From assembly GCF_004010195.1 (NCBI RefSeq), contig NC_057756.1, forward strand, positions 3,330,653-3,394,652: a stretch of 64,000 nucleotides of DNA. The letters are read 5' to 3'. The DNA is from Chiloscyllium plagiosum. Taxonomy: Eukaryota. A model generated the notes under the pieces. That model was not told where the DNA came from. It saw only the letters and a program-made list of their open reading frames with translations, and searched no databases. The position numbers and the translations under genes are program-made. The first letter of the stretch is position 1. Each line of letters begins with the position of its first letter. Below are positions 7,782 through 54,591 of the stretch, in pieces.

Positions 7782-8039
7782 TTCTTGGAACCTAGCTCTA
7801 TATTGTTTTTGTTGAATAAGTTGAATTGGTTTTTTTTTCAAAATTCCCACATTCATACATAAGTGGTCAGGTACTCCTTTTAACAAAATGTCACTGTTTC
7901 ATTCTAACTTTTCTTGGAACCTAGCTCTATATTGTTTTTGTTGAATAAGTTGAATTGTTTTTTTTTCAAAATTCCCACATTCATACATAAGTGGTCAGGT
8001 ACTCCTTTTAACAAAATGTCATTGTTTCATTCTAACTTT
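7782..8039. repeat. Recent 129-bp tandem duplication
   Basis: ttcttggaacctagctcta...cattctaactt occurs at 7782-7910 and 7911-8039 with only a few differences. Confidence 0.95.
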
Positions 8040-8565: not shown

Positions 8566-8586
8566 ATCTGACAAAATGCCAAGGAG
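8566..8586 (+). CDS. 21-nt phase-1 heptad micro-exon, (D)LTKCQG, of a butyrophilin/BG-like coiled-coil gene; GC-AG donor
   Basis: Acceptor cattcttcctctcccctctcAG; exon ATCTGACAAAATGCCAAGGAG; donor GAG|gcaagt matches the GC-donor consensus; 18/21 identical to 11849-11869. Confidence 0.75.
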
Positions 8587-9866
8587 GCAAGTTTTTATTA
8601 AATGGAAAATTGAAATCCATCTGCATCTTCATTGGCAAGCAACTTCAAAGTAAATCAATAAATGCAATAGGAACACACACTTGGACACTCACAGAAACAG
8701 ATGTTTCTGGTTGGTTTTGCATTGATGCACTTATTGTCATTTAGAACATGCTCAGAAAATGAGAGAGCATCTGATTTCAGGATTATCTCGTTTACAATGT
8801 ACCTAAATGCCAATAATAATGAGTGATATCTTCTACCTCGCGTTAAAAGAAACAAACATTGCTCATTTGAAGTGTAAAATATGTATGTTATTTTATTTGC
8901 ATTCCGTTTGTGAATGTTTCTGTCAGAATTCAAAAAAGCTTTTATTTGCGAATGAAATGCCTTTACATTGCAGCGTAGTGAGTCATAATTTTTAAACTAT
9001 CCAAAACAAATGTAATACCAGCAACTGTAAATGAAGAAAATGTCCAGTTGAGAAAACCAAATTAAACGACAACTGCTGAGAAACTGATTGGTGTTTGGAA
9101 TTTTTATGGTGGTGTGAAAGTAAGGAGTGACATGAAGTAGTTTTGACTTTCTTCTACCATCTCAGAGGCGATCTTTCACACCTCAGTAGCAAATACCTGT
9201 GGTGCCAAAATCTGTGTTGCAAATTCTGTCATTCTGTTACTTTTGGCGGATATTATGGGCATGTGTTCGTGAGTCTGAAACATGCAAGATAATATTTTAA
9301 AACGTATCCTTATTGTTGCTGCAACGGAAACTTTTTTATAGTCTAAGATGCATATTGTTCCCTTAACTGAAAATGAACGACTTGCATCATAACGTATGCT
9401 GTTTCTTTTTCAAATTGACAATTAAAATTTTTCCAGACACATCTGGGAACATCATGACAATCGCTTCTTATCTGACCTGATATACTTTTGTTCTCACTTT
9501 TATTAGTTGCACACCAGAATATATATTTAACGTCTAGAAATTAATTGCAAAAACATCTACAGAAATGTGAACTGATGTCCGATTTACACTGTTATTAAAA
9601 TTTTTACTAAACACGACTCCGTGCAGTATTTTATGACAGATTTTTACTTATTGCTTCTCTCTGTTGGTGGACATCTCAAGTAGGATGTCTTCAGCATATC
9701 GCACAAAATTACTTTACCCACTTCCCCGGGAACCTACAGATGGCACAACATCGTGTGTTATCTCAACAAATCAGAGTCGCAAATTTGCATTTATAAAATG
9801 TATTTAATTTTGGTCAGGAACTTAATTTGAATGTGATTTTATCTTACTCCTCTTTTCCTGTTGCAG

Positions 9867-9887
9867 ATCTTAACAATTTAGAAGGGA
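9867..9887 (+). CDS. 21-nt phase-1 heptad micro-exon, DLNNLEG
   Basis: Acceptor tcctcttttcctgttgcAG; exon ATCTTAACAATTTAGAAGGGA; donor gtaagt. Confidence 0.8.
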
Positions 9888-11099
9888 GTAAGTGGTTTTA
9901 GATTTTAATCACTAACTGTTCGAAGTTTGTTGTAAAGTAACAATTGTTGGCTCTGAAATTTCACAACGTTCTAAATTGGAACAAAAATAAAATGCCACAA
10001 GTTAAGGGGAACGAAACGTGATGTTAGAGGCAAGAACTGAAATAAATTACTCCAAATTCCGAAGTGCTGTTGGAGAAATTGATGAGGTTGAAGGACGAGG
10101 AAGTTTGAAGGCACAACAATGTATGTCACCGAGACACTAAAGCATGAGGACATTAGCATCAAGGATCATTTTCCAAAATTTTGTAGACACTGTATCAGTT
10201 CCTACATATTTCAACATAGCTTAAGTACACGCTCCGTTGTAGTAAGTACCTGGAGATAAGAAAACAGTAATGACAGCCCAATTCAGCTTCCTGTAAGTAG
10301 CGGGAAAACTTGACAGTCCATGATAAACGCTTCAGTGTGAAAGCACTTATTAATGAGTGGGAGGATCACACAGAGTAAAAATTAATTGACGAAAGAGAAA
10401 TCGTTGTTGACAACTCAGTTGGAATTTGTTTTCAGAATACAAGGAGTAGAGTTGTTGGCGGGAGCTGGCGGGTACAGTTGACAATTCGTTTTCCAAGAAA
10501 GTTTTACTTTGGAATCATGATATTTGTGTTTAACGTAATACTGATTTCAACATAGAAATTCCAAAAAAAGAGCAGTATTTACGATTATTATCTCTGTCCT
10601 TTCGGAATTTCTGCAGAGTTCTCAGCGATCGCAGTGGCAAAACCCAAAATCCAGAAATAGATGACTGCCCTCCATTCAACGTGTGACCAAAGCGATCTGC
10701 TAGAATCTTCCATATACGGGAACAAGAAACCCCGCCCGTATTTTTTAAAGAATCCCAATGAGGACATCAGCTTCATCTCTACATTTGAAACTCCAATCTA
10801 TTTTTCACCATATGAATCAAACACATTTCAAACTCTGCTGCATCAGTGCTGGATAATTGGCTCATGATCCGCTTCCCAGTCAGAGCCACATCAAATCACC
10901 AACAGATTCCATGAAGGCCCCCCATAACCCATGAAGAAACATATCAATATCAAACATGAACCGTCTCACAAACCCTGCCTGACAAAATACCTTTCCACGT
11001 AATCCAAGCACTGTTACGTGAAAAGTCGTGTTTTACCATTTGATGCTATACTCATAGCAGATATCTCATGGTCACGACCTTTCGACATTCTTTTTAATG

Positions 11100-11410
11100 T
11101 GTTCAAAGGGCAGTGGCCGAGCTGGTTGGACAACAATTATTACGCATGCCGATTTAATCAGAGGGAAATCAAAAGACCATTGCATTGTTGTGGGTCTGCT
11201 GTCTCACAAAACCCAAATGAGGAAAGGATGACGGTTTTCTTCACCAAAGGTTAACTAAGCAGATTTTTTTTTCTGACAGAAACAATGGATTCATGATTTT
11301 TCCTCAGTCCATATACACAACCTGCCATGGCAGCATTCGATCGCAGGCCTCTGGAACATTACATCGGGCTATGGTTAAAAAGTTAAATGATAAAAGTAGT
11401 AGACCATTCC
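11100..11410 (-). mobile_element. Ancient, highly diverged tRNA-derived SINE
   Basis: + strand ctgccatggcagcattcgatcgcaggcctctggaacattac resembles the reverse complement of a tRNA-like SINE head with a B box. Confidence 0.4.
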
Positions 11411-11815
11411 TATTCAAAACTGAATGAAAAATGTGTCAGACTTTAAGCATTGAGTTGTATCTTCCTTTGGAAAACAGGGTAATTAACGGTCTGACACAAT
11501 CATTAACAGATAACCAAAGCAAAAAATAGCATGCAAACATAAATAATCGTTAGGAAAATCGAATGACACTGTTCAAAATATTAAGCTTATGGATATTCTT
11601 TTCTTTGTCTCCAAGGTGTCATATCTCACTAAGATGTTGTTTTGTATTTTTTTATTATAATTTCAGTTTGAGACGACGTTTCATTTTAGGTCTCTGCCTG
11701 TTTGTCTGAATGATCTATGTAGCGAGCTCAGTGATTATCTGTGATATCCAAAACTTTAACCTGGCTATCATAACATTTTCCCACTAATTCAGAATATCTG
11801 ATGTTACGTTCACAG

Positions 11816-11869
11816 ATAGAAAGGTCCGATTATCTCGCAACGTCGCAGATCTGAAAATATGCCAAGAAG
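11816..11869 (+). CDS. 54-nt (33+21) phase-1 exon, NRKVRLSRNVADLKICQE; internal CAG acceptor gives an alternative 21-nt exon at 11849-11869
   Basis: Branch-like cactaat at ~11782; acceptor ttacgttcacAG; open in frame; donor AAG|gtattc; last 21 nt paralogous to the 8566 and 54571 exons. Confidence 0.7.
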
Positions 11870-12739
11870 GTATTCCATCACTTTATTAATTTCACAGATA
11901 TGAATTAAACTTGATTAAACCATCAGATTATTGCATCATCATAATGGCAAAAAAGTAAAGCTTGCCCTTGCTCAATAGTGGAAAATAAACCTTTCATCAC
12001 CTCTGCTCTGCTTCTGAGTCATTATGAATAATTATTGATTGCTTACCGTCATATTAACGCTAGACTTTTCTTACTGTGAATATGGTTTCTGTTAATGTTT
12101 CTTTGTATTTTTTTATGTAATTTTGTAATTATGGGATAAAGGGAGACAAAGCAGGCTCATCACTTGATATTGATAGAGAACACAAAATTACTAAGATTTC
12201 CCAATCATAGTTATCATTTGTGTGTAGGAAATAACATACATGGTGAAACAATAACCGGCAGCATACATTAATGTATACCCATACTTGCAAAGAGAAACAT
12301 CTTTGCTTATTTATCTATACTTATTTGGATGTGTAGATTCTGTTCTTTATTTCATAACATTGCGAGGAGATCTGATCGCAGCAATCGAACATCCAACATT
12401 CCTATTTAGGTCAAATCAAGCATGACAGTTAGTCGTGAAAAAAATTGACTTGCAGTTCTTCTCTACTTCTGAAATGATGCCTGAACGCGCACAGAAATAT
12501 TTTGCACTTCAGATATTATCAGAACTATTAGTTTATCGTAAAAAGAAAAGTACTTAGTCCAAAATGAGCAGATCCTGCCTCGCTTCATCACTAGTTGACG
12601 TGACAGATATCAAAGAAACAATGACAGGAAAAAACACAACAAAAAAAGCTACAGTAAATTTCATGAGTTGTAAATTTGAAGATTTTTTTCTGAGCAACTT
12701 CATTCGTCTTTTTTTATATCTCAGAAAATTAAACAGGGG

Positions 12740-13510
12740 CATAATTTAAGTTATAAGATCGAGTCGTCAAAAATTTTAAAGGGTGACAACAATCAGTATT
12801 CGTGGTACACATTGATACCAATGACAGAGGGATGGAAAGAGAAGAGGAGCTCGAAAGAGGATATAGAGAGTTAGGACGGAAGCTGGAAGGCTGACTAATA
12901 ATCTCAGGATTGCTTTTGGTGCCACTGGCTAGTTTGGCAAGTAATGCAGACCAAGTGCAGCTAAACAGGTGGTTGCAGGGTTGGTGCAGGGGTGTGGTTG
13001 GTTCAGGAATGTGGATCATTGGCATACCTTCGAGGGAAGGTGTGACATTTATAAGAAGTACGGTTTGCAAGACAGTTGGAGGGACACCAATATCCTGGGC
13101 GGGAGATTTGCTGGAGTGCTTCAAGGTGGAAAGCATGGAGTTGAAAATAGATTTGCAGGAGCAGTGGAAACCTGCGTTACAGATCAGATAATGGAAGATA
13201 CAGTGAACAGCCAGATGCAGTTTGCAGAGAATCTTGTGGAGGGATGGGCACTTGATTGTGCAAAGGTGCAGTCAATGTGATGGGTTGAAGAGTGTCTATT
13301 TTACTGCAAGACGTATCAGGAAAAATATTGACGAACTCAGAGCACAGCTGAGTACTTGGAAGTATGATATATTGGCAATTAGAAAGATTCCGATATCACA
13401 GGAGCCGGGATGTTTGTTGGATGTTCCGGATTTTAGATGTTTCACCAAGAATGGCGGGGGATGCTGGTGCGTGGAAGGTAAAAGGAGTGGATGCGTGTTA
13501 TTGCTAATCA
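12740..13510 (+). mobile_element. CR1 LINE fragment: ORF1 SGNH/GDSL esterase and start of ORF2 AP endonuclease
   Basis: VVHIDTND...YRELGRKL...IISGLL...NRWLQGWCRG...HWHTFEGRCDIYKK...DTNILGGRF; LKSVYFTARRIRKNIDELRA...KYDILAI. Confidence 0.8.
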
Positions 13511-14045
13511 GTCACACACACATTCTCTCTTTCACACATGAATGCACACACTCATATAAGTCGATATCGTGAATTTGCATTTGCAACATTGCATTTGCAA
13601 TTGCGTTCTATTTTGTTCAAAAAGCACACAAAATCGAGACTTATGTAATCTATGTGACATTTTGTAAAATCATACTTTGGAAATAGATTCTAATAATACA
13701 CCTTTAATGCATTGTCTGAGATGAGAGGTGGCCTTTTTAAATAGAACCTTACGTTAGCACGAGAATGTAACTTGAAAAAGTTCTAGAATTTTCATATTAA
13801 TGAATCTGAAACTGCATCCCATTCTAAAAGGAGAAAGACTTAGATTTGCACGATATATCTTATCAATGTATGATCTTATGATCTTATGCTATAACTTCTG
13901 TGTCCTTTGATCCTACTCAGTTAGCTATCTGATGAGGAGGAGCGTTCCAAAAGATTGTTCTTTCAAATAAACTTCTTGGAATATGAATTGTTTTTCTGTA
14001 ATGTTTAACTTTGTCAGCCCAGTCCAACAATAGCAACTAAACAAT
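13511..14045 (+). mobile_element. Old PLE-derived terminal fragment with a degenerate hammerhead (13929-13955)
   Basis: CTGATGAggaggagcgttccAAAAG followed by ttcaaataaac...ttaactttgtcagcccagtccaac, resembling a PLE terminus. Confidence 0.5.
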
Positions 14046-15009
14046 ATGTAGAGAAGGCGACTAGAGGGAAAATGTGCACACTCTATTTGTATTAAGGTGG
14101 GAAAATCGGTCTTCTCCCCTCCAATCTTCTATCATACATTTGCCGAAACAGCTGATTAAATACACCTGGATTATTAAGATTCTTTTCTGGTGCAGGTCCG
14201 TATTTTCTACCCACATACTAACTTCTACATTCTTCTGAATTCACAACATCATTGTGCTATACTTTGTCAAACTGATTTGGCTCGTCATTCCACTATGAAA
14301 CTTCGTGATGAGGCCCAATCCTCTCCAATAAAAGTTAATGCATTTTTTCACTTAGCATAATCTATTCTCCCGCCTGTCCCTGTTCATCAGACTTCAAATC
14401 TACACAACTCCCAGATATTTTACACAAAAGAGCCATTTCCTATGCTTGGGCAATCTCCCCGAAATTAGCCCAGTCCAATCGTAGTTCCACAAGTGCAGAT
14501 ATGGATTGCGCTCCCTTTCATCCCTGCGATTTCAGTTCTGCATGGATCTGACAGCGATGTCAACATGGTATTTCTTGCAGTTTAAGCGTCATTCAATCTG
14601 TTCACGCTGGTCGTATGTAGAATATATTAAGCTCATTTACAGAATATTTGAACCACCATACGTGAATATTCTGTTTCTGATGTCAATGTTTGTCGATGAT
14701 TGATGCACCAGTAATTTCTTGAAATTCAGGATACAGGTTCGTTTACTCAACTACCGTTGCGATGATTCTCTACCTCTTACCAAAAAAGTGATTCTGTAGT
14801 AGCACTCAAAATCAAGAATAATTGGTCAGGCATTCACATCTTCTATACATGGAGATAGTACAATGCTTGAATTATGCAGGAGTGTGGTATTAACAGGCAC
14901 CACATTTCTTCTCAAAAATTTCGTAAGTGCCAAAACACAATTTTCCTCGAGTCTCACTATAATCTCATTCCACAGGTGCCAACCTATCTCGACTCCAAAG
15001 CGCAATTTT

Positions 15010-15220
15010 TTTCGAATCCATCACCTTCATCCGCACCTCCATCCACTTATTGCACTCTTGGCTACCTTCTCCCCAGCCCCACCCCTACTCCAATTTATCT
15101 CTCCCCCGCGGAGGCTCCCTGCCTCATTCCTGATGAAGGGCTTTTGTCTGAAACGTCGGTTTTCCTGCATCTCGGATGCTGCATGACGTGCTGCGCTTTT
15201 CCAGCACCACTCTAATCTGG
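15010..15220 (+). mobile_element. Neptune PLE terminal fragment
   Basis: Homologous to 1740-1857 (cctcattcctga.gaagggctt...ggatgctgc.tgac.tgctgc.ct.ttccagca). Confidence 0.8.
15126..15162 (+). ncRNA. Hammerhead ribozyme motif with canonical core
   Basis: CTGATGA-a-GGGC-tttt-GTCT-GAAAC-GTC: canonical core and GUC cleavage triplet. Confidence 0.75.
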
Positions 15221-15819
15221 GCGAGATTACATTGTTCATCTTGGCGTGGCATGTCATCCTGAACGTCCACTTCTAAACAAGTTATCAATATTCGTTTTAC
15301 TTCAACCACATTGCATGTATTCTGTCTAACGCATCAGCGTCTCTATGTGGTGACATGCTTAAAGTAACTTTTCTTTTAAACTGACCAGTTTCTTCACTGA
15401 AAGAGTGGAAATGAATCGTCAATATTTTTACGATTATGCTTGGGGTGAGGACTAAAATGCTCTCCATTCCTTGGATTCCAAGTGAATGCTTATGATAGTC
15501 GATTTCGAGATTAAATCTAGATTAAAACCTAGATTGCCTGCCGTGGAAACTCGCTAGATATGCTAATTGATACGATTCGGTCATTAAAGTGATGTTGACT
15601 GCTGGTGCCTCCATAGATCTTACAAGCTGCCAGGAAGATAAGGCAGATGTCTTTGTCGGTTGTCTATTTTTTTCGTTTCGTTTTCTGGCCTCAATTTGCA
15701 AAATTATGCAACCAAACCACTCAAGGAGCAAAACATCAATGATTGTAAAATGGTGGGAATTGTTGAACAAGTTGATGTTGTTGCAATTTGTTCAAACCTG
15801 GATTCAATTGAATATAACT

Positions 15820-16752
15820 AAATAGAATTGAATTGGCTTTAATGTCCTAGCAACTCAGATGACTACAGTGTAAAGTTTGCAGTCACTGCATTACAGTACC
15901 ATCCTTGCGAAAAACGTGTTAAGGCAGAGATATTTAAGATGAAGTTGTCAGGAAAGAATGCTAAAATTAGGAAATTAAATAAATTAACAGCAAAGTATTA
16001 TGCACATAAAATAAATTAGAGAAACAAAGGACTAAAATGTTCAGAACATCGGTTATTAGAACTCAGGCCATGACAGCATTCAGCCTCACAAGAGACATCC
16101 AGCCTCTTGAGAACACTGGAGTTGCCCCACATTATGACCCACCTCTTCACGACTGGGAACGATTTGCTGATGCCAGTGTACCTGTACTCACCAAGTAACC
16201 AAATGTTGATTACTTCACTGCAAGGCCAGGCCACTGCAGGACCGCGGGTCCCACATCTGCTGTACGTTTCTTTGCTGGAACTGCAGGCACTGCAGACCCC
16301 GATTGCTGGAAGAGCTTTGCTGCTGCTGGTGCTGCAAGTAGACGGAATGATGGTGCAGCTGCTTCCACTGGTCCTGAATGCCAGGAGAAACGGTTCACTG
16401 CCATTGGTCCCGGAAAGAAGTAGAACAACATCATTGATGCTACTGTCGACTGGTAATTCCACTCGATTACCCGGTGGAGGCTGCCACACACCCTGAATGA
16501 CGCGAGAACGCATTCGCTAACACCACCTCCAATCACCGGACGAATGTTCTCCCTGTCAATTCTGCTGCCTCTGATCACTGACAGAAGTCACGACCCCCAA
16601 CTTACCACAGATAAGAAATGACAAAAGACCAAAAGAAGTAATGCTAAATAAAAGATCACAAGGAAAAGGAAAACAAATAAGCAAAACAAATGGGCGTAGG
16701 TGGTCTCCAGGCCAGAGTCGGTATGTACAGCTGCTACTCTACCATCATCTTG
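15820..16752 (-). mobile_element. Probable non-autonomous non-LTR retroelement with a GC-rich body
   Basis: GC-rich island bounded by attgaattggctttaatgtc (tail side) and ctactctaccatcatcttg (head side); same layout at 62495-63206. Confidence 0.4.
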
Positions 16753-17899
16753 CACTGTAAGTGTGTTTGGTATGTCTGGAATATAACTCTTTCAGAAACT
16801 CCATTTGTGCATGCCTGTGACTTTAAAGCAGCATGCATAGTTATTGGGCTGGAGAGCATTTAGGAGGAAAAGAGCAAAATAGGGACCAAGAGAGGATGAC
16901 GAGGGACAGCCAGATGGAAGAAATACATTGGCGTTTTGCTCGCTAAACAGAGGCCAAAGAGAACCAGAAATATTGGTATTAAGATATAGACACTGATTAT
17001 CAAAGCCGAAGGAAACAAAATCAAGACAGGAAAGTAAAGCAATAAATACCAAAACATTATACGGTACTTATAATAATGAATTAGAAAAATGAAGGAGTAA
17101 AATGTTCAGAATGTCGACTTCTTGAATGAGCAATGAACAGAACAAAAACAATCTGCTGCCATCATTTAGCAAAAGGAGCAAAAGCAAATATGCATATGCA
17201 TGCATTCACATAATATTTATATATTATATATGTAATGAGTTATCAGCGTGTATCTGCTCTTTTGCTGTTCGTCGAGGTAAACGTCAGGTAGACTGGATTC
17301 ACAGGATACTGTCGTCAGACAATCATTTAGCAGACTATAGCAGTATCTGTGATGTTTTAACTTGTAAAATGTCGCTGCACGTTTACCTCTCATCTTAAAT
17401 CAGTATAAAAACATTAGTAGTCGCAGCTCTGAGGCGCAGGCATACTAAGACAAGGGTCATTGGAGGATAACAATTTAGTCATTCAGAAAATAATCAAATT
17501 TTGAAAATGATCAAATTTCGTTGCTTGTCACTTTTTCGTGGAGGAAATATGCACAACTCAGTAAGAACTTCCCTTGACAGACAAAGAAAGTGCAAACAAT
17601 GATTTCAGAATTGGACCTTTGAATTGTTGTAACAATGAGCACAAAGGGTTGGCAAAATATCCATTTTGCGCACACTATTATTGATGATCAACATATTTTA
17701 TCATTTAAATGAACAATTTAGTATTGAGTGTAGATCACTTCTGCGTCTTTCGACAATAAAGCTCTGTCCACGATATTTTGCTGTGCAGACTTCCGTATGA
17801 TCTGCAACAAAATATTGCAATTAAAGTTTCGACATTCGATAGATCATGGCAGCATTATATTGCCGTTTCATTTGAGAACGTCGCTAAACAAATGAAGCA

Positions 17900-20200
17900 T
17901 CCAGCGACGGTAAGGGTATAGTTGATTTAAAAGAAGTTGCTGGGTCGATTTGGTGAGGTATTTGCATCAGTGTGTGAAGAAGTTAATGTCTAGTATAATG
18001 AGGTGAAAATGCCCTTATAATAGCATATCAACTGCAACCAAGAGCTCACAGAGAACGTTTCAGGAATCCAAGGTGGGAACATGATCAAACGTAAGGAGAG
18101 TTTGAAAGGATTAAACAATTCATTTTAGTGGGTGAACAGGTGCATTGAATATCGATTAAACATATGAGCATACATTTGCGAGAGACGAATATTCTTGACC
18201 CGTTTTTAAAAAAAATCCTGAAATATTGCACACCCGTAAGGAAAAAGGCTTAGGGAAGGATGGAAGATTAGCAGCCGAAGTGGCAGATGAGTATGAGTTG
18301 GTTCATGGATACCAAAACATTTTTATAATTTGTGAGAGACACACATTGGAGAAAAGATACTCAGTTGGTAAGGGAAAAGAAACCTTCGTTGAATATAGTA
18401 AAGACAGTTTTACATGGTATAAATAGAAAATCAATTTTGAGAAAAGATTAATTAAAGCAACTCAGGTGTTTTCACCGTAATAAAGTGCGACAAATTAAGT
18501 CACATAGTTCTTGATTTAGAAAAAGCAAAAAAGCAAAGTAATAAAGGAAAACACAGTCGATTAGCAAAACTGCGAAAGAATGCACAAACTGATGAGGGTT
18601 TGTTTGAGAAGGAAGTGCCAGATATTTTTAAAGATTTTAATTGCGATGGTAAGGTTCATATCTGTTCGCTGGGAAGGAACAGATTGAAATTAAGATTTTA
18701 ATACATAAAGGACCAAGTCAGTGTTTGATGGTGAGAGATAAGATAACATGTAATTTCGGAAGGGGTATTGACAAAAAAGATGGAAGCATGTGAAATTCGT
18801 GGTGAGTAAGCAATATTCCTTTATAGAAAGTGAGGTTGTAGATTGGTTGAAAAGTTAGGGTATTGTGGTGGGAGTAATAGAGAAAATCCCAGTTAGGGAA
18901 ATATACTTTATAATTGGCGATGGCACAGCTGGATCACAGGTCAGAGCAGTGCCTCCTGTTCTTGAAAAGCTAGTGGAAAGCCAGGAAACTGAGTTTTAGG
19001 AATTATTTCCTGGGATTTATCATGAATTTACGGTAATAAGGTAAGAAAACTTTAAATGGAAACGGGGGAAGAAATCAAAAATAGAGACAAGGAAGTTGAA
19101 TTCAAGTAAAAGAGATCATTTTTGATTAAACGGTTGAGATTACCCATGAAGAGATGGAGGACAAAATGAAAACTTTAACACCAAGCATTTCTCTGAATTA
19201 AACGTGAAGATGAAAAGCTAATCGAATTGTACCAAGACGAATCAGTGTGTGCCAAATGTACGATCTTAAAAATGAAGTTTGGAGAAAGAAATGTAATCCA
19301 TTGCATATGCTGGTGGCTGACAAATGAGTCAAATGAAAACAAATTGATAATATTTTACTGTTTTCAACATAGAGTGCTCAACGAAGTTCAAATGATCGTG
19401 AATTGAATATTTGTCTACTCAGTTTGGAAAATGGCGAAGTTCTCACAAATTGCACTAAAATTTTGAATTACCTTCAAAAGGAAAATCGAAATGATGTGAA
19501 AGATATATTAAACCACGTAGGGAGATGCATGGTTCTGAGTTTGGAAGTACTATATGATGCAAATATCAGGAATGCTTTTCCAGTTAAGCAATATTCTCTT
19601 GAAAGTAACGCTCGAATGTTCACACAGGGTCGAGAGGAATTTGAATCAATGCTCAATTACAATATAATTAAAATGAATTGCCGATAATGATTTTGATTTA
19701 TAGTATTTTTTTCCAAAACTACATGGTTACGAAAAAGGTTTTAGAAAATTGCAAAGTTAATGCTGTTACAAAAGCCGATTCCTACCGTTTCTATGTTTGG
19801 ATATTGGGATTATCAACTGATATTTCTAAACTGGAACGAACTCAGAAGATTTTGGCGGATAACGATATCCAAAAGAGTGAAGGAAATTTTAGCATTTGTG
19901 AGACTGAATAAGTTGTAACTGTTAAAAGTCATTCCATTTGGTATGAAAACTACAGTTTTAGATCCAACGAACAAACCTGTGTAGGAACTATCCAATTGTG
20001 TGTTGTACTTCGACCATCTGGTGATGTTTAGTCTCAGATACAAGGAGCATTTGGAGTCTCTATCTGAATCGTTCGTTTGACGTCAAGAGGCAGTCTTGAA
20101 AATAAATCTGGCTATGCATGAATTCACAAAAACTCAACACATGTTCCTGAGTCATGTCTTTGGAGATGGAACGATGATTCCAAAAAATGCGAAAAGAAAT
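17900..20200 (+). mobile_element. Highly decayed Gmr1-like Gypsy internal fragment
   Basis: gag-like FASV.EEV...Y.EVK...AYQLQP.AHRERFRN; later RT-like YFDHLVMFS and LKINLAMHEF...MFLSHV; homologous to 32433-36670. Confidence 0.6.
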
Positions 20201-20205
20201 GATTT

Positions 20206-21175
20206 AGAACATAGAACATAGAACATAGAACAATATAGCACAGAACAGGCCCTTCGGCCCACGATGTTATGCCGAACTTCTAACCTAGATTAAGTACCCA
20301 TCCATGTACCTATCCAAATGCCGCTTAAAGGTCGCCAATGATTCCGACTCTACCACTCCCACGGGCAGCGCATTCCATGCCCCCACCACTCTCTGGGTAA
20401 AGAACCCACCCCTGACATCTCCCCTATACCTTCCACCCTTCACCTTAAATTTATGTCCCCTTGTAACACTCTGTTGTACCCGGGGAAAAAGTTTCTGACT
20501 GTCTACTCTATCTATTCCTCTGATCATCTTATAAACCTCTATCAAGTCACCCCTTATCCTTCGCCGTTCCAACGAGAAAAGGCTGAGAACTCTCAACCTA
20601 TCCTCGTACGACTTCCTCTCCATTCCAGGCAACATCCTGGTAAATCTTCTCTGCACCCTCTCCAAAGCTTCCACATCTTTCCTAAAGTGAGGCGACCAGA
20701 ACTGCACACAGTACTCCAACTGTGGCCTAACCAAAGTCCTGTACAGCTGCAACATCACTTCACGACTCTTGAATTCAATCCCTCTGCTAATGAACGATAA
20801 TACTCCATAGGCCTTCTTACAAACTCTATCCACCTGAGTGCCTGAGTGGCAAGATCTATGTACATAGACCCCAAGATCCCTCTGTTCCTCCACCTGACTA
20901 AGAACCCTACCATTAACCCTGTATTCCGCATTCTTATTTGTTCTTCCAAAATGGACAACCTCACACTTGGCAGGGTTGAACTCCATCTGCCACTCCTCAG
21001 CCCAGCTCTGCATCATATCGAAGTCCCTCTGCAGCCGACAACAGCCCTCCTCACTGTCCACAACTCTACCTATCTTCGTATCATCTGCAAATTTACTGAC
21101 CCACCCTTCGACTCCCTCATCTAAGTCATTAATAAAAATTACAAACAGCAGAGGACCCAGAACTGATCCCTGCGA
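20206..21175 (-). mobile_element. Young 5'-truncated CR1 LINE (RT C-terminal half open)
   Basis: QGSVLGPLLFVIFINDLDEGVEGWVSKFADDTK...[19 protein letters not shown]...WNALP; (AGAACAT)n tail at 20206-20231. Confidence 0.95.
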
Positions 21176-21243
21176 GAGTTCTGAGACTATAGACGAACAG
21201 TGAAGGAGTTTGACACCTAAAGCGAGGTGCTTCTGGCTATTGG

Positions 21244-21995
21244 AGAACAAAGAACAAAGAGAACAAAGAACAAAGAAAATTTACAGCCGAGGAACAGGTC
21301 CTTTGGCCCCCCCCCAAGACTGAGCCGATTCAAATCGACTGTCTAAACCTGTCGCCGAATTCCTTAGCATCTATATCAACTGCTCCCCACCTACACAAAG
21401 AAAATTTACAGCCGAGGAACAGGTCCTTTGGCCCCCCAAGACTGAGCCGATTCAAATCGACTGTCTAAACCTGTCGCCGAATTCCTAAGCATCTATATCA
21501 ACTGCTCCCCACCTACTCATCCATCTATCCAGACACATCTTAAATGAATCTACCGTGCCTGTCTCTAATATCTCTGCTGGCAACGCGTTCCAGACTCCCC
21601 CCACAATCTGGGTGTAGTACTTGTCGCGTGTATCCCTCTTAAACTTTTCACGTCTCACCTTGAAAGCGTGAGCTCTCGGTATTGAATCGTTCACCCTGGG
21701 ATAAAGCTTATTTCTATTCACCCTATCTATACCCTTCATGATTTTGTAAAGTTCAGTCAGCTCCCCCCATTTCCTTTATTCTACTGAAAACAAACCTAAC
21801 CTACTCAACCTTTCTTCATAGCTAGCACCCTCCATACCAGGCAACGTCCTCGTAAACGTTCTCTGCACCCTCTCCAAGGAATCAAATATTTTAGGTAACG
21901 TGGCGACCAAAATTGTACACAGTATTCTAAATGCGGCCGAACCATTGTCTTGTACAATTTTAACGTGACTTGCCAGCTCTTCAACTCAATACTTC
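21244..21995 (-). mobile_element. CR1 LINE 3' fragment with a duplicated 3' end
   Basis: (AGAACAA)n tail; MKGIDRVNRNKLYPRV...VWNALPAEI; 21270-21394 is repeated at 21395-21516. Confidence 0.9.
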
Positions 21996-21999
21996 ACTA

Positions 22000-23625
22000 C
22001 CAAATGCCTATGTCTTGAAAATACCATGTTAGAGATCAGGAGGTGCTGGATGTATTCAAACACATGAAGGTGGGTAAATCCCCATGACCTGATCAGATGA
22101 CCCCTGGAACCCTCTGGAAAGCTACAGAAGTGATTGTTTGGCCCATTGCTGAGATGTTTCTGTCATTGATAGTCACAGGCGATGTGTTAGAAGACTGGAG
22201 GTTGGCTAACATGGTACTGCTCTTAAATAAAGGTGCTAACGACAAGCCTAGGGACTATTGACCGGTGACCATGACGTGAGTGGTGGGCAATTTGTTGGTG
22301 CAAATTGTGAAAGATTGGATTTTATTGGTTTTGAAAAGGCAAGGACTGATTAGTGATAGTCAACATGGCTTTCTGCTTGGGAAACTATGTTTCACGACGT
22401 TGATTAAATTTTTTGAAGAAATAACAAAGAGGGTCGATGAGGGCAGAGTTAGGAACGTGATCCATGTGGACTTCAGTAATGCGTTCGACAAGTTTGCGAT
22501 TGGAAATTGGTTGTGTAGGTCAGATCTCGTGAATTCAAGGAGAACTATCCATTCAGATGTAGAACTTGTTCGAAGGTAAAAAAAAAACAGTGTGCTTTTG
22601 ATCTGTTTTTCAAACTGAAGGACTGTGACCAGTGGAATGCAATGAGGATCCCTGTTGGGTCCACTACTTTTCGTCATTTATATAAATTATTTGAAAGTCG
22701 ACGTGGAAAGGATAGATAGTAAGTTTGCAGATAACTACTAAATTGGAGGTATACTTGAGAGTGAAAACGGTTACCTCAAATTATACTGGATCTTGATCAG
22801 ATAGGTCAATGATGGAATATAATTTAGATATACGTGAGGTGTTGCATTTTGGACAAAAACAAATCAAAGCAGGACCAATAGAATGAATAGTAATTCCCAA
22901 GGAATGTTGCTGAACCAAGAGACATTGGGTTGCATATTCATCGCTCTTTGAAAGTAGTGTCGCAGGTAGATAAAATTGTGATGAAGGCGTTTGGTATGCA
23001 TTCCTTTTTTTGGTCAGAGTATTGAGTATAGGAGTTGTGAGTTAACGTTGCATGTGCACAGGACGTTGGTTAGACCACTTTGGGAAGATTGCGTGCAGTT
23101 CTGGTCACCTCCCTCACCAAAAGACGTTGTAAAACTTGAAAGAGTTCAGAAAAGATTTAGAAGGATGGAGTTGGAGGATGTGAGCTACTGGGACAGCTGT
23201 ATGAGCTGGCATGGTATGCCCTGGATAGTCTGAGAATGAGGGTTGACCTTATAGAGGTTTATAAAACAATGAACGCCATGGATACCGGAAATATTCTAAG
23301 TATTTTCCCGGAGATAAGGTTTCCAGAACTAAAGGGGATCCGTTTCGAGTGAGAGTGGAAAGATGTAAAAGGGACAAAAGGGCAAACATTTTCACACAGA
23401 GAGTGGTGCAAGTTTGGAATGAGCTGCCAGAGGCAGTGTTGAGGATTGGTACAATTACAACATTTAAAATGTATCTGGATAGTTCTTTGAATAGGAAATG
23501 TTTTCACGGACATGAGCCAAGTGCTAGCAAATTAGTGAAGAGAAGGTTGGGAGATCGGGTCTACCTGGCCGAGTTGGAAAGAAAGATCTGTTTCCATGGT
23601 TTACATCTCTCTGATTCTTTGACTC
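22000..23625 (+). mobile_element. Degenerate CR1 LINE RT region
   Basis: SQHGFLLGKLCFTTLIKFFEEIT...HVDFSNAFDK; TLVRPLWEDCVQFWSP; VWNELPEAV. Confidence 0.9.
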
Positions 23626-23754
23626 TAGATCAGTACCGAAGTTTAATAGTGTGGGTGCACCACTGATTGACTTGTTGAAGGTGTGCCGAATATATATGAA
23701 AATGGAGAAATGTCAGCAGGCGTTAGAGATGCTCCTGTTCATTTACACGATGAT

Positions 23755-25610
23755 TCAAAGAGTCATAGAGATGTACAGCTTGGAAACATACCCTTCGGTC
23801 CAACCCATCCACGCCGACCAGATATCCCAACCCAATCTTGTCCCACCTGCCAGAACCCGGCCCATATCCTTCCACACCCTTCCTATTCATATACCCATCC
23901 AAATGCCTCTTATATGTTGTACTTGTACCCGCAACCACCACTTCCTCTGGCAGCTCATTCCATACTCGTACCATTCTCTGTGTGAAAACGTTGACCCGTA
24001 GGTCTCTTCTATATCTTTCCCCTCTCACACTAAACCTATGCCCTCTAGTTCTGGACTTCCTGACCCCAGGGAAAATACTTTCCATATCCATGGACCCTAT
24101 AATGTTGTAAATCTCCATTAGGTCACCCCTCAGCCTCTGACGCTCCAGGGAAAACAGCTCTAGCCTGCTCAGCCTCTCCCTATAGCCCAAATCCTCCAAA
24201 CCTGGCAACATCCTTGTAAATCTTTGATGAACCGTTTCAAAGTTCTCAACATCTTTCCGATAGAAAAGAGACCAGAATTGCACGCAATATTGCAACAGTT
24301 GCTGAACCAATGTCATGTACAGCCACAACATGACCTTCCAACTCCTGTACGCAATACTCGGGCAAATAAAAGAAAGCATACCAAATGCCTTCTTGACTAT
24401 CCTATCCACCTGCGACTCCACTTTCAAGGAGGTATGACCCTGCTTTCCAAGGTCTCTTTGTTCAGCAACGCTCCCCAGGACCTTACCATTCAGTGTATAA
24501 GTCCTGCTAAGATTTGCTTTCCCAAAATGCAGCACCTCGCATTTATCCAAATTAAACTCCATCTACCACCTCTCAGCCCACTGGCCCATCTGGTCAAGAT
24601 CGTGTTGTAATCTGAGGTAACCCGCTTCGCTGTCAGCTACAGCTCCAATTTTGGTGTCATCTGCAAACTTACTAACGGTAAATCGTATGCTGACATACAA
24701 ATGATTTATGTAAATGACAAAATGTAAAGGAGCCAGAACCGACCCTTGTGGCACTCCACTGGACACACGCCTCCAATCTGAAAAACAACGCTCCACCACC
24801 ACCCACTGTCTTCTACCTTTGAGCCAGTTCTGTCTCCAAATGGCTAGTTCACCCAGTATTCCATGCGATCTAATCTTGCTAATCAGTCACCCATGGGGAG
24901 CCATGTCGAACGCCTTACTGAGGCCTTACAGATCACATCTACTGCTCCATCCTCATCAATCCTCTTTGTAACTTCTTCAAAAATCTCAAATTTGTGAGAC
25001 ATAATTTCCCACGCACAAATCCATGTTGACTATTCCTAATCAGTCCTTGCCTTTCCAAATACATGATTCCCTCCAACAACCTGCCCACCACCGAGGTCAG
25101 GCTCACTGGTCTATCGCTCATTGGCTTGTCCTTACCACCCTTCTTAAACAGTGGCAACACGTTAGCCAACCTCCAGTCTTCTGGCACCCCACCTCTGACG
25201 ATCGATGATACAAATATCTCAGCAAGAGGCCCAGCAATTGCTTCCCTAGCTTACCACTGAGTTCCAGGTTACACCTGATCTGGTCCTGGGGTTTTATCCA
25301 TCTGCACACGTTTTGAGACATCCATCACTTCCTCCTCAGTAATCTGGACATTTTGCCAGATGTCACCCTCTATTTCCCGACATTTATATCTTCCATATCG
25401 AAAATACTCATTTAGTATCTCCCCAATTTTCTGCGACTCCACACAAAGGCCGCCTTGCTGATCGTTGAGAGGCCCTACTGTCTCCTTAATTACCCTTTTG
25501 TCCTTAATGTATTTGTAAAAAGCCTTTGGATTCTCCTAAATTGTATTTGTCAAAGCTATCTCATGCCCCCTTTTTGCCCTCCTGATTTCCCCTTCTGTAC
25601 ACTCCTACTT
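23755..25610 (-). mobile_element. CR1 LINE RT region
   Basis: PEDWRLANVLPLFKKG...SQHGFVRGK; GVPQGSVLAP...KFADDTK; MEFNLDKCEVLHFG...VWNELPEEVV. Confidence 0.93.
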
Positions 25611-26460
25611 CCTTTCGACCAATCCGTCTTTTTCCAGGTAATCGAATAATGATCAACAGAAATATTTGACGACTGGAGTGGGCATCTTTTGCTTTGCCTT
25701 GGCATTACATTTCAACGTGCATGTTGCCAGTAATGTGTCTGAGACAACTGCATTTTCTCATAATCGTCCAGTATCGCTTTGTTTGGGAAATAAAAATAAG
25801 TATAGAAGTGGTGAACTGCTTATATGCAACTTACTGTTGTAGCTATTAAATTTGAAATTTTCATTAGCCTCTGGATGAACAAACATAATTAACAATGAAT
25901 TTTGTGACGTTGATGAGGGAAAATGTAGGCGTTTGGTGACGGTTAAGGAACAGAATGAAATGGCTGCAACAAAGAATATTTGGATGCAAATATCTTGTTC
26001 CGTACCATTAGCTAATAGTACAAGACTAAAAGTTTTATTAAATAAATTCATCTTTGCATTTTGTTGGTTCAATTTTTGAAGTGTGGAATTGTGACATTAT
26101 TTTGTATTGAAAAGGTGCATTTTGTCCTGTTTTTTATGAAAGACGTTTGAGATGAGGCACCAATCCGTGTATTCAGAGCGACAAAAGTGAACAGTTTGTG
26201 AAGCATTTTTTTTATTGGAACAATAGTAACAATCTCAACGAGTAGGGTCAAGCTCCCATCGAACTGTTTTTTTTTAATTTAAGAATCATTTGCCGTAGTA
26301 TTGAACTGTGTTAGCAAGATGTAGTACTTCTCGCCCTGGTAATCTGACACTTTTGTTTCCTAGGAAATTGCAGTTGAAAATATTTATGTGGATATACTTA
26401 CAGTCAAAGTCAAAAATATAATGGACAAATTTATTTTTGTGTTTATGATTTTCCTGACAG

Positions 26461-26481
26461 AAAACAAAAAACTAAAAGATG
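26461..26481 (+). CDS. 21-nt phase-1 heptad micro-exon, ENKKLKD
   Basis: Acceptor tttttgtgtttatgattttcctgacAG; exon AAAACAAAAAACTAAAAGATG; donor gtaaga. Confidence 0.8.
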
Positions 26482-38244: not shown

Positions 38245-38285
38245 GTCTGTATGTGTGTGCGTGTGTTTGTGTCCGTGTGTGTGTC
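38245..38285. repeat. Imperfect (TG)n microsatellite
   Basis: gtctgtatgtgtgtgcgtgtgtttgtgtccgtgtgtgtgt. Confidence 0.8.
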
Positions 38286-46640: not shown

Positions 46641-46976
46641 CGAGACGCATAAGATAATCAGAAGTTTAATTATGGTGTACAATGAGAGACTCACGGATGC
46701 TGAAGGTTAATAAGAGTGGACAATGCTTTAAATTGAGGGTTGATCATATAGAACAGATATCGGGGTAGTTTCTCTACTCAGAGAGCAGTAGATGCGTGGA
46801 ACGGCCTGTCTGCCACAGTAGTAGACTCACCGACATTAAGCACATTTAAATGGTCATTGGGCATGCATTTGGATAAAAATTTAATGGTGTTAGTTAGAAT
46901 GGCATCGGATTCATTTCACAGGTCGGTACAACATATGGGCCAAAGCGTTTGTCCTGCACTTTAACGTTCTGTGCAA

Positions 46977-47115
46977 AAGAGAGTACTGCACACGCTGGAG
47001 AATAGAGTCGGAGTATGGTGCTGGAAAAACACAGCAAGTCAGACAGTTTCCAAATGAGTGACTTTCGCCCAAACCTTCGAATTTTCTGCTTCTCGGATGT
47101 TTTTCCAACACCACC
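46977..47115. mobile_element. Inverted PLE terminal fragment nested in the CR1 tail
   Basis: actgcacacgctggag...ggtgctggaaaaacacagcaagtcagacag (reverse terminus) followed by ctgcttctcggatgtttttccaacaccac (forward terminus). Confidence 0.6.
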
Positions 47116-53100: not shown

Positions 53101-53292
53101 GGAAATGATTAGGTTTTGTACATTTACGTCATGGCAATTTAAAAGAAAAAATGTAATGGCTCAAGAAAGCGTTTACCTCAAGTGGCGAAAAAAACTTTCT
53201 CATTTTTGCTGCTCTGTTTATGAGCTATGTGAACCATTATTTATCTGCATACCATTATATAAATATGGATTTGCCTTCATCTGGCTGCTTCT

Positions 53293-53915
53293 TTTCCCCG
53301 TTTCTTTCTTTGTGAATGTGCCTTTACGTCATTATATGAAAGCGAAAATGATGAAATATTCAGCACGTGAGACAGAGGCAGATTGAGTTTTTGCACTGAT
53401 TTCTCTGCATGCGTTCCAAGCAGGATGCAATGTACTCACGTGCAAACTCGCCTGAGGACTTGCTCTGACTGCACACATGGTTACTTACAGTTGACAGGGT
53501 TCTTTTTTTGCAATAATAATGAAAAATGACTGCATGACAGGAATCAATCATCCTTCATTTTTCAATTAGACAGTATCATTATTAACAATGATATTTTCCC
53601 ATGTTTCTTTATTTGTGATTATGCCTTCGTGTGATTCTATGACAGCGACAGCGAAAGTGACGCACTGTTCGGCACGTGAGAGAGAGGCAGACTGAGATAT
53701 GTACTGGTTTCTCTGCGCGCATTCCAAACATGTGTTGTGGAAGGGCTAGATGCAAAGTACTCACGTGAAAACACAACTGAGGACATGCTCTTACTGTGTA
53801 CACGTTTACTTCATGTTGACCAGATTCTTCTCCTTTTTCACCAAAAATGAGAAGTGATTTCATGACCAGAATGAATAATCATTTTATTTTCAAAATTGGA
53901 CAACATTATTCACAA
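53293..53915. repeat. Old ~300-bp tandem duplication with conserved CACGTG motifs
   Basis: Units ~53293-53590 and ~53595-53915 align throughout (gcacgtgaga.agaggcaga.tgag; gatgcaa.gtactcacgtg.aaa; ctgaggac.tgctct.actg). Confidence 0.85.
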
Positions 53916-54570
53916 TCCGCAGCAAAAAAAACACATAACGATAGGACCTTCACTTAGCTGTTCCATTTATACGCTCAGCATTGTATTTATTCTGATGTTA
54001 CCAGAGGTTCAACGTTGGATGTATGAATATTCTTCTTTAAGATCCTGAGGTAGCTACTGAAGCGTAAGATTACATTTATAAGAAACTCACAACAACCTAC
54101 TGAGTACATTTTGCGGACACACGGCGATTTTGGAACCCTGGGTATTCTCAAGGGCAGACAAAAGTCATGATTAATGCAACGAGCTTAAGATGTTAAAAGA
54201 TCTGTTGAAAACAACATAATTTAAAATTACCGAAAAAGGATAGGCAAAGGTGAGATTCTGATGAAAGGTCGCAATCTTATTTCTTCAAATTAATTGATAA
54301 TCAGCTCTCCTTACAGTTATGCAGGAACTTATTTTGAAGTTATGCATGACGTGTATTTTGCAATGTAATTTTTAAAAAGTAGAGATGCAGAAAGTCAGTC
54401 TTCTTTTCACATATATCGATGATGTTCACAGTTGCAAACGAATGGTGAATACAATTTTGTGATTCTCTGATATGCGAATCCCTGCAATTGTTTTGTGAAT
54501 TTGCTGTACTTGGTGATGTAACTTCAGCAGAAATATTAATTTGCGTTTGCTTTTATGTGTGAATTCACAG

Positions 54571-54591
54571 ACCTTCAAAGAAGCCAAGCAG
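54571..54591 (+). CDS. 21-nt phase-1 heptad micro-exon, DLQRSQA
   Basis: Acceptor tttgcttttatgtgtgaattcacAG; exon ACCTTCAAAGAAGCCAAGCAG; donor CAG|gtaaga; 15/21 identical to 11849-11869. Confidence 0.8.

What the first reader, a model, noticed from the sequence alone, without database searches (positions are those of the whole stretch)
8566..54591. Hidden host gene: dispersed 21-nt heptad micro-exons encoding a butyrophilin/BG-type coiled coil
Seen: five + strand segments with polypyrimidine-AG acceptors and donors (8566-8586, 9867-9887, 11816-11869, 26461-26481, 54571-54591). Four are exactly 21 nt and one is 54 nt, and all are open in phase 1. Spliced in order they read (D)LTKCQG DLNNLEG NRKVRLSRNVA DLKICQE ENKKLKD DLQRSQA with no stop and a clear a/d pattern (L..C...L..L; L..C...N..L...L..S). 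Three are mutually paralogous at nucleotide level (18/21 and 15/21 identity), which argues against chance. Established: tandem 21-nt exons, each encoding one heptad, characterise the cytoplasmic tails of butyrophilin/BTNL/ERMAP and avian BG proteins. Inference: the window is mostly intron of such a gene in a shark, with 138 coding nt spread over 46 kb, easily missed by annotation. The family assignment rests on exon architecture only.
Basis: partly seen in the sequence, partly recalled or inferred. Interest (0 to 1): 0.85.

Follow-up and report, generated by a model that had tools for sequence, protein, structure and literature searches.

The report
Dispersed one-heptad micro-exon array, shark
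The five tiny segments look like real exons of a shark gene locus that builds a helical coiled coil seven residues at a time from 21-base exons scattered over hundreds of kilobases, but RNA proof is missing and the butyrophilin label is not shown.

Summary
All five segments are at the stated coordinates. Each has an AG acceptor; four have GT donors and one a consensus GC donor. They read open in phase 1.

They are not cherry-picked. In 314 kb around the window, 15 splice-flanked segments on the + strand are exactly 21 nt long. Every other length from 15 to 33 nt gives 0-3, and the - strand gives 0 at 21 nt. About 20 intact exons follow one heptad plan: D/E, L/N, x, K, L/C, Q, x.

Genome-wide pattern searches place 25 relatives on the + strand of one contig, across 1.5 Mb. 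They form two sub-arrays, and the window holds the start of the second.

The array grew by segmental duplication and contains at least four decayed copies.

RNA evidence could not be obtained, because the only usable runs gave no reads on these exons.

The butyrophilin/BG assignment rests only on exon design. About 350 kb was examined, and no IgV, transmembrane or B30.2 exon was found on the + strand. The hydrophobic positions also sit at codons 2 and 5 of each exon, not codons 4 and 7 as in chicken BG.

This scan earlier noted one-heptad or two-heptad exon arrays in a fungus and a protist, on unrelated DNA.

Verdict: a real micro-exon coiled-coil locus, a new variant of a known design, with the gene family open.

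The parts
8566..8586 (+). 21-nt micro-exon, commonest type (reads D-LTKCQG with the split codon). It is the first mapped exon of the distal sub-array. Its donor is GC.
   Evidence: acceptor score 12.7, donor context GAG|GCAAGT. It is 19/21 identical to the exon at window-equivalent 123984, although the flanks cannot be aligned. The 141 nt around it match nothing else in the 3.56-Gb genome.
9867..9887 (+). 21-nt micro-exon, second type (D-LNNLEG). It lies 1.3 kb after the first exon, the same pairing seen in later units.
   Evidence: acceptor 10.8, donor gtaagt. Pairs of a first-type and a second-type exon 1.0-1.9 kb apart recur at 70480/72401, 123984/125042 and 199531/200617.
11816..11869 (+). 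The paralogous core is 11849-11869 (D-LKICQE), which has its own AG at 11847-11848. Which acceptor is used is unresolved. Both keep the frame.
   Evidence: the core is 18/21 identical to 8566-8586. Both acceptors are weak (0.2 and -0.2) and the donor is gtattc (-0.6). The extra 33 nt are open in frame, which is weak evidence (11 codons).
15617..15637 (+). Probable decayed copy of the commonest exon type (would read LTSCQE). It keeps an AG acceptor, but AT stands where the donor GT should be.
   Evidence: exon-only weight-matrix score 16.2, flanks ccatag | ataagg.
26461..26481 (+). 21-nt micro-exon, third type (E-NKKLKD; Asn at the a position).
   Evidence: acceptor 2.4, donor gtaaga 4.2. Similar exons at 150841, 161972, 185397 and 212861. 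It lies in single-copy DNA by contig depth (bin 26343-26999).
54571..54591 (+). 21-nt micro-exon, a diverged copy of the commonest type (D-LQRSQA; Ser where the others have Cys or Leu). It is the least certain of the five.
   Evidence: acceptor 0.1, donor gtaaga 7.0; 15/21 identical to 11849-11869 and 14/21 to 8566-8586. It fails the strict heptad filter.

Best explanation
The five segments are genuine exons, or very recently genuine ones, of a large + strand locus. [quoted passage not shown] Every exon starts with two bases of a codon and ends with one, usually G. Any subset can therefore be spliced together without losing the frame or the heptad register, and the junction codon is nearly always acidic. 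The array grew by duplication of multi-kb units, which typically carry a first-type exon followed 1-2 kb later by a second-type exon. Transposon insertion then stretched the introns to 1.3-28 kb in the window, and some copies lost their splice sites (birth and death). The window holds the first five mapped exons of the distal of two sub-arrays on the contig. Shown: the positions, the splice dinucleotides, the open phase, the strand-specific and length-specific excess, the paralogy, the restriction to one contig and strand, and the duplications. Inferred: that the exons are transcribed and spliced today, that the product is a parallel dimeric coiled coil, and that exon choice or number varies. 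The gene family, and the protein's N- and C-terminal parts, remain unknown.
For: (1) Length and strand specificity. In 314 kb, AG..GT segments with acceptor >=1 and donor >=3 number 15 at exactly 21 nt on the + strand. Each other length from 15 to 33 nt gives 0-3, and the - strand gives 0 at 21 nt. At looser thresholds the counts are 18 vs 2, and 17 of those 18 are open in phase 1. With phase-1-open lengths 15-129 in steps of 3, 12 of 22 + strand candidates are 21 nt, against 0 of 13 on the - strand. (2) A filter on peptide content alone, with no splice scores, passes 11 of 1688 + candidates and 3 of 1763 - candidates. The + hits have positive splice scores and the - hits negative ones. (3) Position-specific residues over 20 intact exons: codon 1 D/E 19/20, codon 2 L 12 and N 4, codon 4 K 13, codon 5 L 9 and C 6, codon 6 Q 11. 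(4) Genome-wide patterns. 7 of 8 hits lie on this contig's + strand, with reversed-pattern control 0. 10 of 12 hits with <=1 mismatch, and 20 hits in all, are on C47, all on the + strand. 12 of 14 hits are on C47 +, control 0. 12 of 16 exact hits are on C47 +. The union is 25 sites between 2,320,162 and 3,798,334. (5) The flanks are unique: 13 of 19 exons with +-400 nt match only themselves in 314 kb. Exons up to 19/21 identical have flanks that cannot be aligned. (6) Where duplicated units can still be aligned (flanks 62-71% identical), the exon plus its splice dinucleotides keep 16-22 of 25 positions in 7 pairs of copies; 3 of those pairs include the copy at 125042, which has lost its donor. 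(7) Samples elsewhere in the mapped range show the same exons in compact clusters: three 21-nt exons within 1.7 kb in L027, plus a fourth pattern hit about 0.4 kb further on, and further exons in L030.
Against: No RNA support. No listed RNA run holds the stretch. When reads were laid, the two single-cell poly(A) runs gave 0 reads on any exon bin. Only about 2% and 6% of those runs were read, and one of them laid nothing at all. Three of the five window acceptors are weak by my matrix. Differences between paralogous exons show no excess of synonymous changes (46 synonymous vs 121 non-synonymous single-base codon differences, and similar entropy at the three codon positions). In the younger duplicates the exon bodies are only modestly better kept than the introns: about 73% vs 65% without the splice dinucleotides, by my arithmetic. 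At least four copies are decayed. No first exon, terminal exon, promoter-like CpG island or any other coding exon was found in 314 kb, so a complete gene model cannot be drawn. An intron set of this size around 21-nt exons would be unusual.
Confidence: 0.7

Rival explanations
1. The exons are the cytoplasmic heptad tail of a butyrophilin/BTNL/ERMAP- or BG-type immunoglobulin-superfamily gene, with leader, IgV and TM exons upstream and perhaps a B30.2 exon downstream.
For: It has the same exon design as chicken BG and BTN tails: 21-nt exons, one heptad each, with a codon split as one base plus two (PMC4046983 and PMC5938342, passages read). Occasional exons of other lengths also occur in BG (18 or 24 nt). 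Butyrophilins are reported in cartilaginous fishes (PMC12841164, passages). The contig is rich in C2-set_2 Ig exons (12 of 145 genome-wide matches) and has one B30.2 exon.
Against: No V-set, C2-set or SPRY hit came from any + strand ORF. Those scanned were: >=56 aa up to window position 43259 and >=45 aa beyond it (258 ORFs), >=68 aa in the +-100 kb flanks (292 ORFs), and >=66 aa in 80 kb of further samples (118 ORFs). An Ig signature regex gave no + strand hit in 334 kb. No hydrophobic phase-1 exon was found in 108 kb upstream of the first micro-exon. All C2-set_2 and V-set hits on the contig lie at 5.69-10.2 Mb, downstream of the arrays, which is the wrong side for a BTN layout. Those two searches scored only 150 of 1319 and 150 of 302 candidates. 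The B30.2 exon is 0.78 Mb beyond the last mapped exon. Its nearest longer relatives are TRIM proteins at 27-35% identity, and no common-type exon lies in the 8.5 kb before it. The a/d residues sit at codons 2 and 5 here, against codons 4 and 7 in BG.
Confidence: 0.2
2. The array is a relic. It was once a compact micro-exon gene or gene cluster, has been blown apart by transposon insertions, and is no longer expressed as a coding transcript. The intact-looking exons are survivors.
For: Decayed copies exist at 15617, 125042, 134146 and 196478. No synonymous excess is seen. No RNA reads were found (this was not a real test). No flanking exons, promoter or terminal exon were found. Introns are enormous.
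Against: About 20 of 24 recognisable copies in 206 kb keep AG, GT/GC, an open phase and the heptad pattern. Meanwhile the flanks of the older copies have diverged beyond alignment, and neutral decay would not spare 4 splice bases plus the frame this often. Of the 8 best exon-only matrix hits, 7 keep both splice dinucleotides (this is partly circular, since the matrix was built from splice-selected seeds).
Confidence: 0.2
3. The exons encode an extracellular coiled-coil stalk (neck) of a type II receptor or secreted oligomer, such as a C-type lectin neck or a scavenger-receptor-like stalk. Cys at d positions would form interchain disulfides.
For: Cys is the commonest d residue of the main exon type. 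It occurs in 8 of the 12 exact C47 hits of a pattern that left that codon free, and in 6 of 20 exons in the 314 kb. A ladder of Cys at d positions fits an oxidising compartment better than cytoplasm; this is inference from general coiled-coil knowledge. Phase 1-1 exons are typical of extracellular modules (established knowledge).
Against: No Lectin_C match anywhere on the contig, with all 133 first-look candidates scored. No other domain exon was found in the DNA examined. No TM exon was found upstream.
Confidence: 0.15
4. Chance, or a repeat-borne motif. The segments are cherry-picked from the many AG..GT 21-mers of an AT-rich window, or are parts of a transposon.
For: The window alone has 323 + strand AG-21-GT/GC candidates, and most are open in a given frame. 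One recurrent false positive is indeed repeat-borne: the same 21-mer occurs at 2917-2937 (-) and at 151673 (+), and its first 15 bases in L029.
Against: The excess is specific to one length and one strand. The exon family is confined to one strand of one contig in a 3.56-Gb genome, with reversed-pattern controls at 0. The flanks are unique. The exon bins are single-copy by depth, while the TE bins are 10^4-10^6.
Confidence: 0.02

Closest known systems
Chicken BG genes (butyrophilin family): cytoplasmic tail of 27-37 exons of 21 nt (PMC4046983 and PMC5938342; passages read)
   Same: One heptad per 21-nt exon. The first codon is split as one base from the previous exon plus two from this one (phase 1). 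Exons are many and their number varies through duplication. Occasional exons have other lengths. The predicted product is a dimeric coiled coil.
   Different: In BG the a/d residues come from codons 4 and 7 of each exon; here they come from codons 2 and 5. Introns here are 1.3-28 kb in the window, and the family spreads over 1.5 Mb. BG genes are compact (this point is recalled, not checked). No IgV or TM exon was found here. Cys is frequent at d here.
Mammalian butyrophilin/BTNL/ERMAP-type genes: a few heptad exons between the TM exon and the B30.2 exon (PMC4046983 introduction; PMC12841164)
   Same: Heptad repeats follow one another as separate small exons (the 21-nt size for BTN is recalled). 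Variable numbers of heptads between species are reported.
   Different: Here there are dozens of exons, not a few. No Ig exons were found upstream and no B30.2 downstream in the DNA examined. The only B30.2 exon on the contig is 0.78 Mb away and is TRIM-like.
One-heptad and two-heptad exon arrays noted earlier in this scan: a fungal gene with seven 21-nt phase-0 exons (e1-7221451) and a protist gene with 42-nt exons (e1-7154532). These are unchecked AI notes.
   Same: A coiled coil is built exon by exon in multiples of one heptad, and it grows by exon duplication.
   Different: Those are compact, phase 0, in unrelated eukaryotes, and reported there with RNA support. This one is vertebrate, phase 1, megabase-scale and without RNA support.
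Micro-exon genes (MEGs) of Schistosoma (recalled; named as closest known in the earlier scan notes)
   Same: Runs of short symmetrical exons whose inclusion can vary without breaking the frame.
   Different: MEG exons vary in length and do not encode heptads, and the genes are small. This is a resemblance of principle only.

Membership tests
BG / butyrophilin family | A run of 21-nt exons, each encoding one heptad | tested here: met
   15 splice-flanked 21-nt segments on the + strand against 0-3 at other lengths and 0 on the - strand. Heptad residue pattern over 20 exons.
BG / butyrophilin family | Split first codon: one base from the previous exon, two from this exon (PMC5938342) | tested here: met
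   Only the phase-1 frame is open across the joined segments. 19 of 20 exons give Asp or Glu at the junction codon if the previous exon ends in G, and 18 of 20 do end in G.
BG (chicken) | [quoted passage not shown] | tested here: not met
   Here Leu/Asn sits at codon 2 and Leu/Cys at codon 5. Codons 4 and 7 are mostly Lys and Gly/Glu/Asp/Lys.
BG / butyrophilin family | An IgV (V-set) exon upstream, plus an IgC exon in BTN | tested here: inconclusive
   No V-set or C2-set hit in 668 + strand ORFs from the window, the flanks and further samples. No Ig signature on the + strand in 334 kb. The genome-wide lists show contig hits only at 5.69-10.2 Mb, but only 150 of 1319 and 150 of 302 candidates were scored. 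About 0.5 Mb between the two sub-arrays, and the DNA before 2.31 Mb, were not read.
BG / butyrophilin family | A transmembrane exon directly before the heptad exons | tested here: inconclusive
   No hydrophobic exon ending in phase 1 with a usable donor in 108 kb upstream of 8566. The two scans gave 0 and 1 hits, the 1 being at -98.5 kb with no acceptor, against 2 and 8 on the control strand. This was a crude scan, and it was not run on L027, the sample from the proximal sub-array.
Butyrophilin (not BG) | A B30.2 (PRY-SPRY) exon after the heptads | tested here: inconclusive
   None in 150 kb downstream or in the sample at 3.798-3.808 Mb. The only listed SPRY exon on the contig is at 4,577,660, is TRIM-like, and has no common-type exon in the 8.5 kb before it. 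Only 150 of 293 SPRY candidates were scored.
Type II C-type lectin receptor with coiled-coil neck | C-type lectin domain exons downstream of the neck | tested here: not met
   No Lectin_C match on the contig at E <= 1, with all 133 first-look candidates scored.
Any expressed micro-exon gene | Spliced transcripts joining the exons | tested here: inconclusive
   Read laying on window 7000-26999 gave no RNA read on any exon bin. About 2% and 6% of the two RNA runs were read, and one laid nothing.

The most novel reading that the evidence does not exclude
A jawed-vertebrate locus in which, for at least 0.46 Mb and perhaps 1.5 Mb, the only coding sequence is a chain of 21-nt one-heptad exons separated by introns of 1-70 kb, a coding density of about 0.2%. 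It would be spliced into a Cys-studded coiled coil whose length and sequence can be varied by exon choice. This would be either the oldest known relative of the BG/butyrophilin heptad tail or, given the shifted heptad register and the absence of Ig exons, an independent invention of the same modular design.
Probability: 0.25. Interest if true: 0.8.

Novelty: new variant of a known kind. Interest (0 to 1): 0.62.

Why it matters
If it is transcribed, this locus is an extreme natural test case for how the spliceosome finds 21-nt exons inside introns of tens of kilobases. It also illustrates how a coiled coil can be lengthened, shortened or diversified purely by exon duplication and exon choice.

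For comparative immunology it bears on the origin of the one-heptad-per-exon tail of BG and butyrophilin genes. A shark relative would place that design at the base of jawed vertebrates. An unrelated gene with a shifted register would show convergence.

For annotation, it shows that a gene desert of more than 300 kb can hide about 20 coding exons that ORF-based and domain-based methods cannot see.

Tried and rejected
**RNA.** The look-up of sequencing runs listed no RNA holder. Read laying on window 7000-26999 used two single-cell poly(A) runs, one possible RNA contig set and one DNA run. It gave reads only on transposon bins, none on exon bins, and no GT..AG joint between exons. The read shares were about 2% and 6%, so nothing follows about expression.

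**Homology search with the coding sequence.** The longest exon translates to 17 residues, and the tool's minimum is 40. The open frame around it is 33 residues. The spliced peptide could not be submitted, so no proteome search was made.

**Domain scans.** Pfam scans of 668 + strand and 130 - strand ORFs found only reverse transcriptase, RNase H and integrase fragments.

**An apparent coiled-coil ORF.** It lies 22 kb upstream and is an (AAG)n microsatellite.

**Contiguous coiled-coil ORFs of 35 residues.** None on either strand.

**Generic exon finder.** With strong sites and lengths 60-450 nt it gave 8 + and 16 - candidates, mostly transposon-derived by eye.

**CpG-rich patches.** Three in 314 kb, none near the first exon, and one inside a retroelement.

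**Codon-position and synonymous/non-synonymous counts among paralogous exons.** Uninformative.

**The B30.2 exon at 4.58 Mb as a possible 3' end.** It is TRIM-like and has no matching micro-exons before it.

**Six kb after an IgC exon at 10.2 Mb.** No TM or heptad exons were seen.

**A loose genome-wide pattern with one mismatch.** It gave as many hits as its reversed control (345 vs 338). Only its exact matches were used.

**Earlier scan notes.** Nothing near this place, and no look-alike windows.


Full report
**Observation.** The five segments are at the stated coordinates with the stated lengths. All follow an AG. Four are followed by GT. The first is followed by GC in the context GAG|GCAAGT, a non-canonical donor type. 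Joined by coordinates, only the phase-1 frame is open. The window is 39.8% G+C with CpG observed/expected 0.57. Apart from reverse-transcriptase fragments, no ORF gave a Pfam match over its curated cut-off. Earlier notes of this scan call the genome a shark; I did not test that. Pairwise identities are 18/21, 15/21 and 14/21 among 8566, 11849 and 54571.

**Is it more than chance?** Within the window alone the case is weak for three of the five. There are 323 AG-21-GT/GC candidates on the + strand. By a rough splice weight matrix, only 8566 and 9867 stand out. The matrix uses consensus frequencies that I recalled, and it served only for ranking, with the opposite strand and other lengths as controls.

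The window is G000:C47:3330653-3394652. I fetched 100 kb upstream and 150 kb downstream. In these 314 kb:
- Splice-flanked segments of exactly 21 nt number 15 on the + strand. Every other length from 15 to 33 nt gives 0-3, and the - strand gives 0 at 21 nt.
- 17 of the 18 found at looser thresholds are open in phase 1.
- A filter on peptide content alone passes 11 of 1688 + candidates and 3 of 1763 - candidates.
- All + strand hits lie at or after 8566. None lies in the 100 kb upstream.

That sequence is A-rich, paralogy was not tested for it, and its flanks match nothing else. 54571 resembles the commonest type but is the least secure of the five.

**Anatomy.** About 20 intact exons lie between 8566 and 212861 in window-equivalent coordinates. 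They share one plan:
- codon 1, the split codon, gives Asp/Glu in 19 of 20
- codon 2 is Leu in 12 and Asn in 4
- codon 4 is Lys in 13
- codon 5 is Leu in 9 and Cys in 6
- codon 6 is Gln in 11

This is a heptad with a at codon 2, d at codon 5, an acidic g and a Gln/Lys e. Eighteen of 20 exons end in G, so any order of joining gives Asp or Glu at the junction. Exon 3 has two in-frame acceptors, 11816 and 11849. The paralogous core starts at 11849.

**Extent.** Four IUPAC pattern searches of the whole 3.56-Gb genome place the main exon type almost only on the + strand of this contig:
- 7 of 8 hits
- 10 of 12 hits at <=1 mismatch, and 20 C47 hits in all
- 12 of 14 hits
- 12 of 16 exact hits

Reversed-pattern controls were 0. 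The union is 25 sites: 15 between 2.32 and 2.73 Mb, with GTGAG donors and Lys-rich heptads, and 10 between 3.34 and 3.80 Mb. The window's exon at 8566 is the first of the second group. Samples at 2.39 Mb and 3.80 Mb show further 21-nt exons, some only 0.4-1.2 kb apart.

**Origin.** The flanks of most exons are unique. Window-equivalent 119.7-135.5 kb and 192.2-213 kb are collinear old duplicates at 64-74% identity, and smaller units recur. Pairs of a first-type and a second-type exon 1.0-1.9 kb apart recur four times. In the 7 alignable pairs counted (3 of them include the donor-less copy at 125042), exon plus splice dinucleotides keep 16-22 of 25 positions, against 62-71% in the flanks. Copies at 15617, 125042, 134146 and 196478 have lost a splice site or bases.

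**What it is not shown to be.**
- Domain exons: no V-set, C2-set, SPRY or lectin exon was found on the + strand in the DNA read.
- Upstream TM exon: no hydrophobic phase-1 exon lies in the 108 kb before 8566.
- Lectin_C: it has no match on the contig.
- SPRY: the only listed SPRY exon is at 4.58 Mb, is TRIM-like, and is not preceded by matching micro-exons.
- Ig exons: C2-set_2 exons are enriched on the contig (12 of 145 matches), but all lie at 5.69-10.2 Mb. The V-set, C2-set_2 and SPRY listings scored only part of their candidates.
- Heptad register: chicken BG exons share the 21-nt size and the one-plus-two split codon, but place a and d at codons 4 and 7 (PMC5938342, passages). Here they are at codons 2 and 5.

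The locus therefore works like a BG tail, but membership in that family is untested at best and fails one feature.

**RNA.** No RNA holder was listed. The laid runs gave no read on the exon bins, at read shares of about 2% and 6%. This is no test either way.

**Literature.** Three full-text searches returned, for 21-nt heptad exons, only the BG/butyrophilin papers. None listed describes such an array in cartilaginous fish. I read passages of PMC4046983, PMC5938342 and PMC12841164 only, and no supplements.

**Verdict.** The micro-exon coiled-coil reading is well supported by sequence statistics and paralogy, but not by RNA. The butyrophilin/BG label is unproven.

Noticed in passing
window 56356-57563 (-) and 58793-60104 (+): Two copies of a reverse-transcriptase-bearing retroelement lie head to head as an inverted pair, with arms 92-97% complementary. 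ORFs on both arms hit RVT_1. By eye the layout recalls the Penelope-like elements that earlier notes report for this genome.
   Followed up: partly
window 2917-2937 (-); window-equivalent 151673-151693 (+); L029 4428-4442: A repeat-borne sequence (TCCAAAGATGTGCAG...) with a good polypyrimidine-AG before it and a GT after it recurs on both strands. It mimics a small exon and was the only - strand hit in the strict micro-exon scans.
   Followed up: partly
window 7782-8039 and 21270-21516: Two local tandem duplications, of 128 bp (2 copies, 98% identical) and 122 bp (2 copies, 96%). The first lies 0.5 kb upstream of the first micro-exon.
   Followed up: no
G000:C47 5.69-10.21 Mb (not in the window): The contig carries 12 of the genome's 145 listed C2-set_2 immunoglobulin exons, including a V-set plus C2-set pair at 10.206-10.208 Mb. 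The one exon I read (L031 1-402) looks nectin/PVR-like by eye. The family was not tested.
   Followed up: partly
L029 8986-9516 (G000:C47:4577486-4578016, +): An intact 177-residue B30.2 (PRY-SPRY) exon. Its closest longer relatives in the protein collection are fish and mammalian TRIM proteins at only 27-35% identity.
   Followed up: partly
L009 8160-8262 (about 22 kb upstream of the window): An (AAG)n microsatellite reads as a poly-Lys ORF and gave weak, spurious Pfam hits (DUF6465, FmiP_Thoc5).
   Followed up: yes
G000:C40851:630-657 and G000:C100091:32568-32595: Two unplaced contigs carry an identical copy of a proximal-array exon with its splice sites. They may be haplotigs or unassembled parts of the array.
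   Followed up: no
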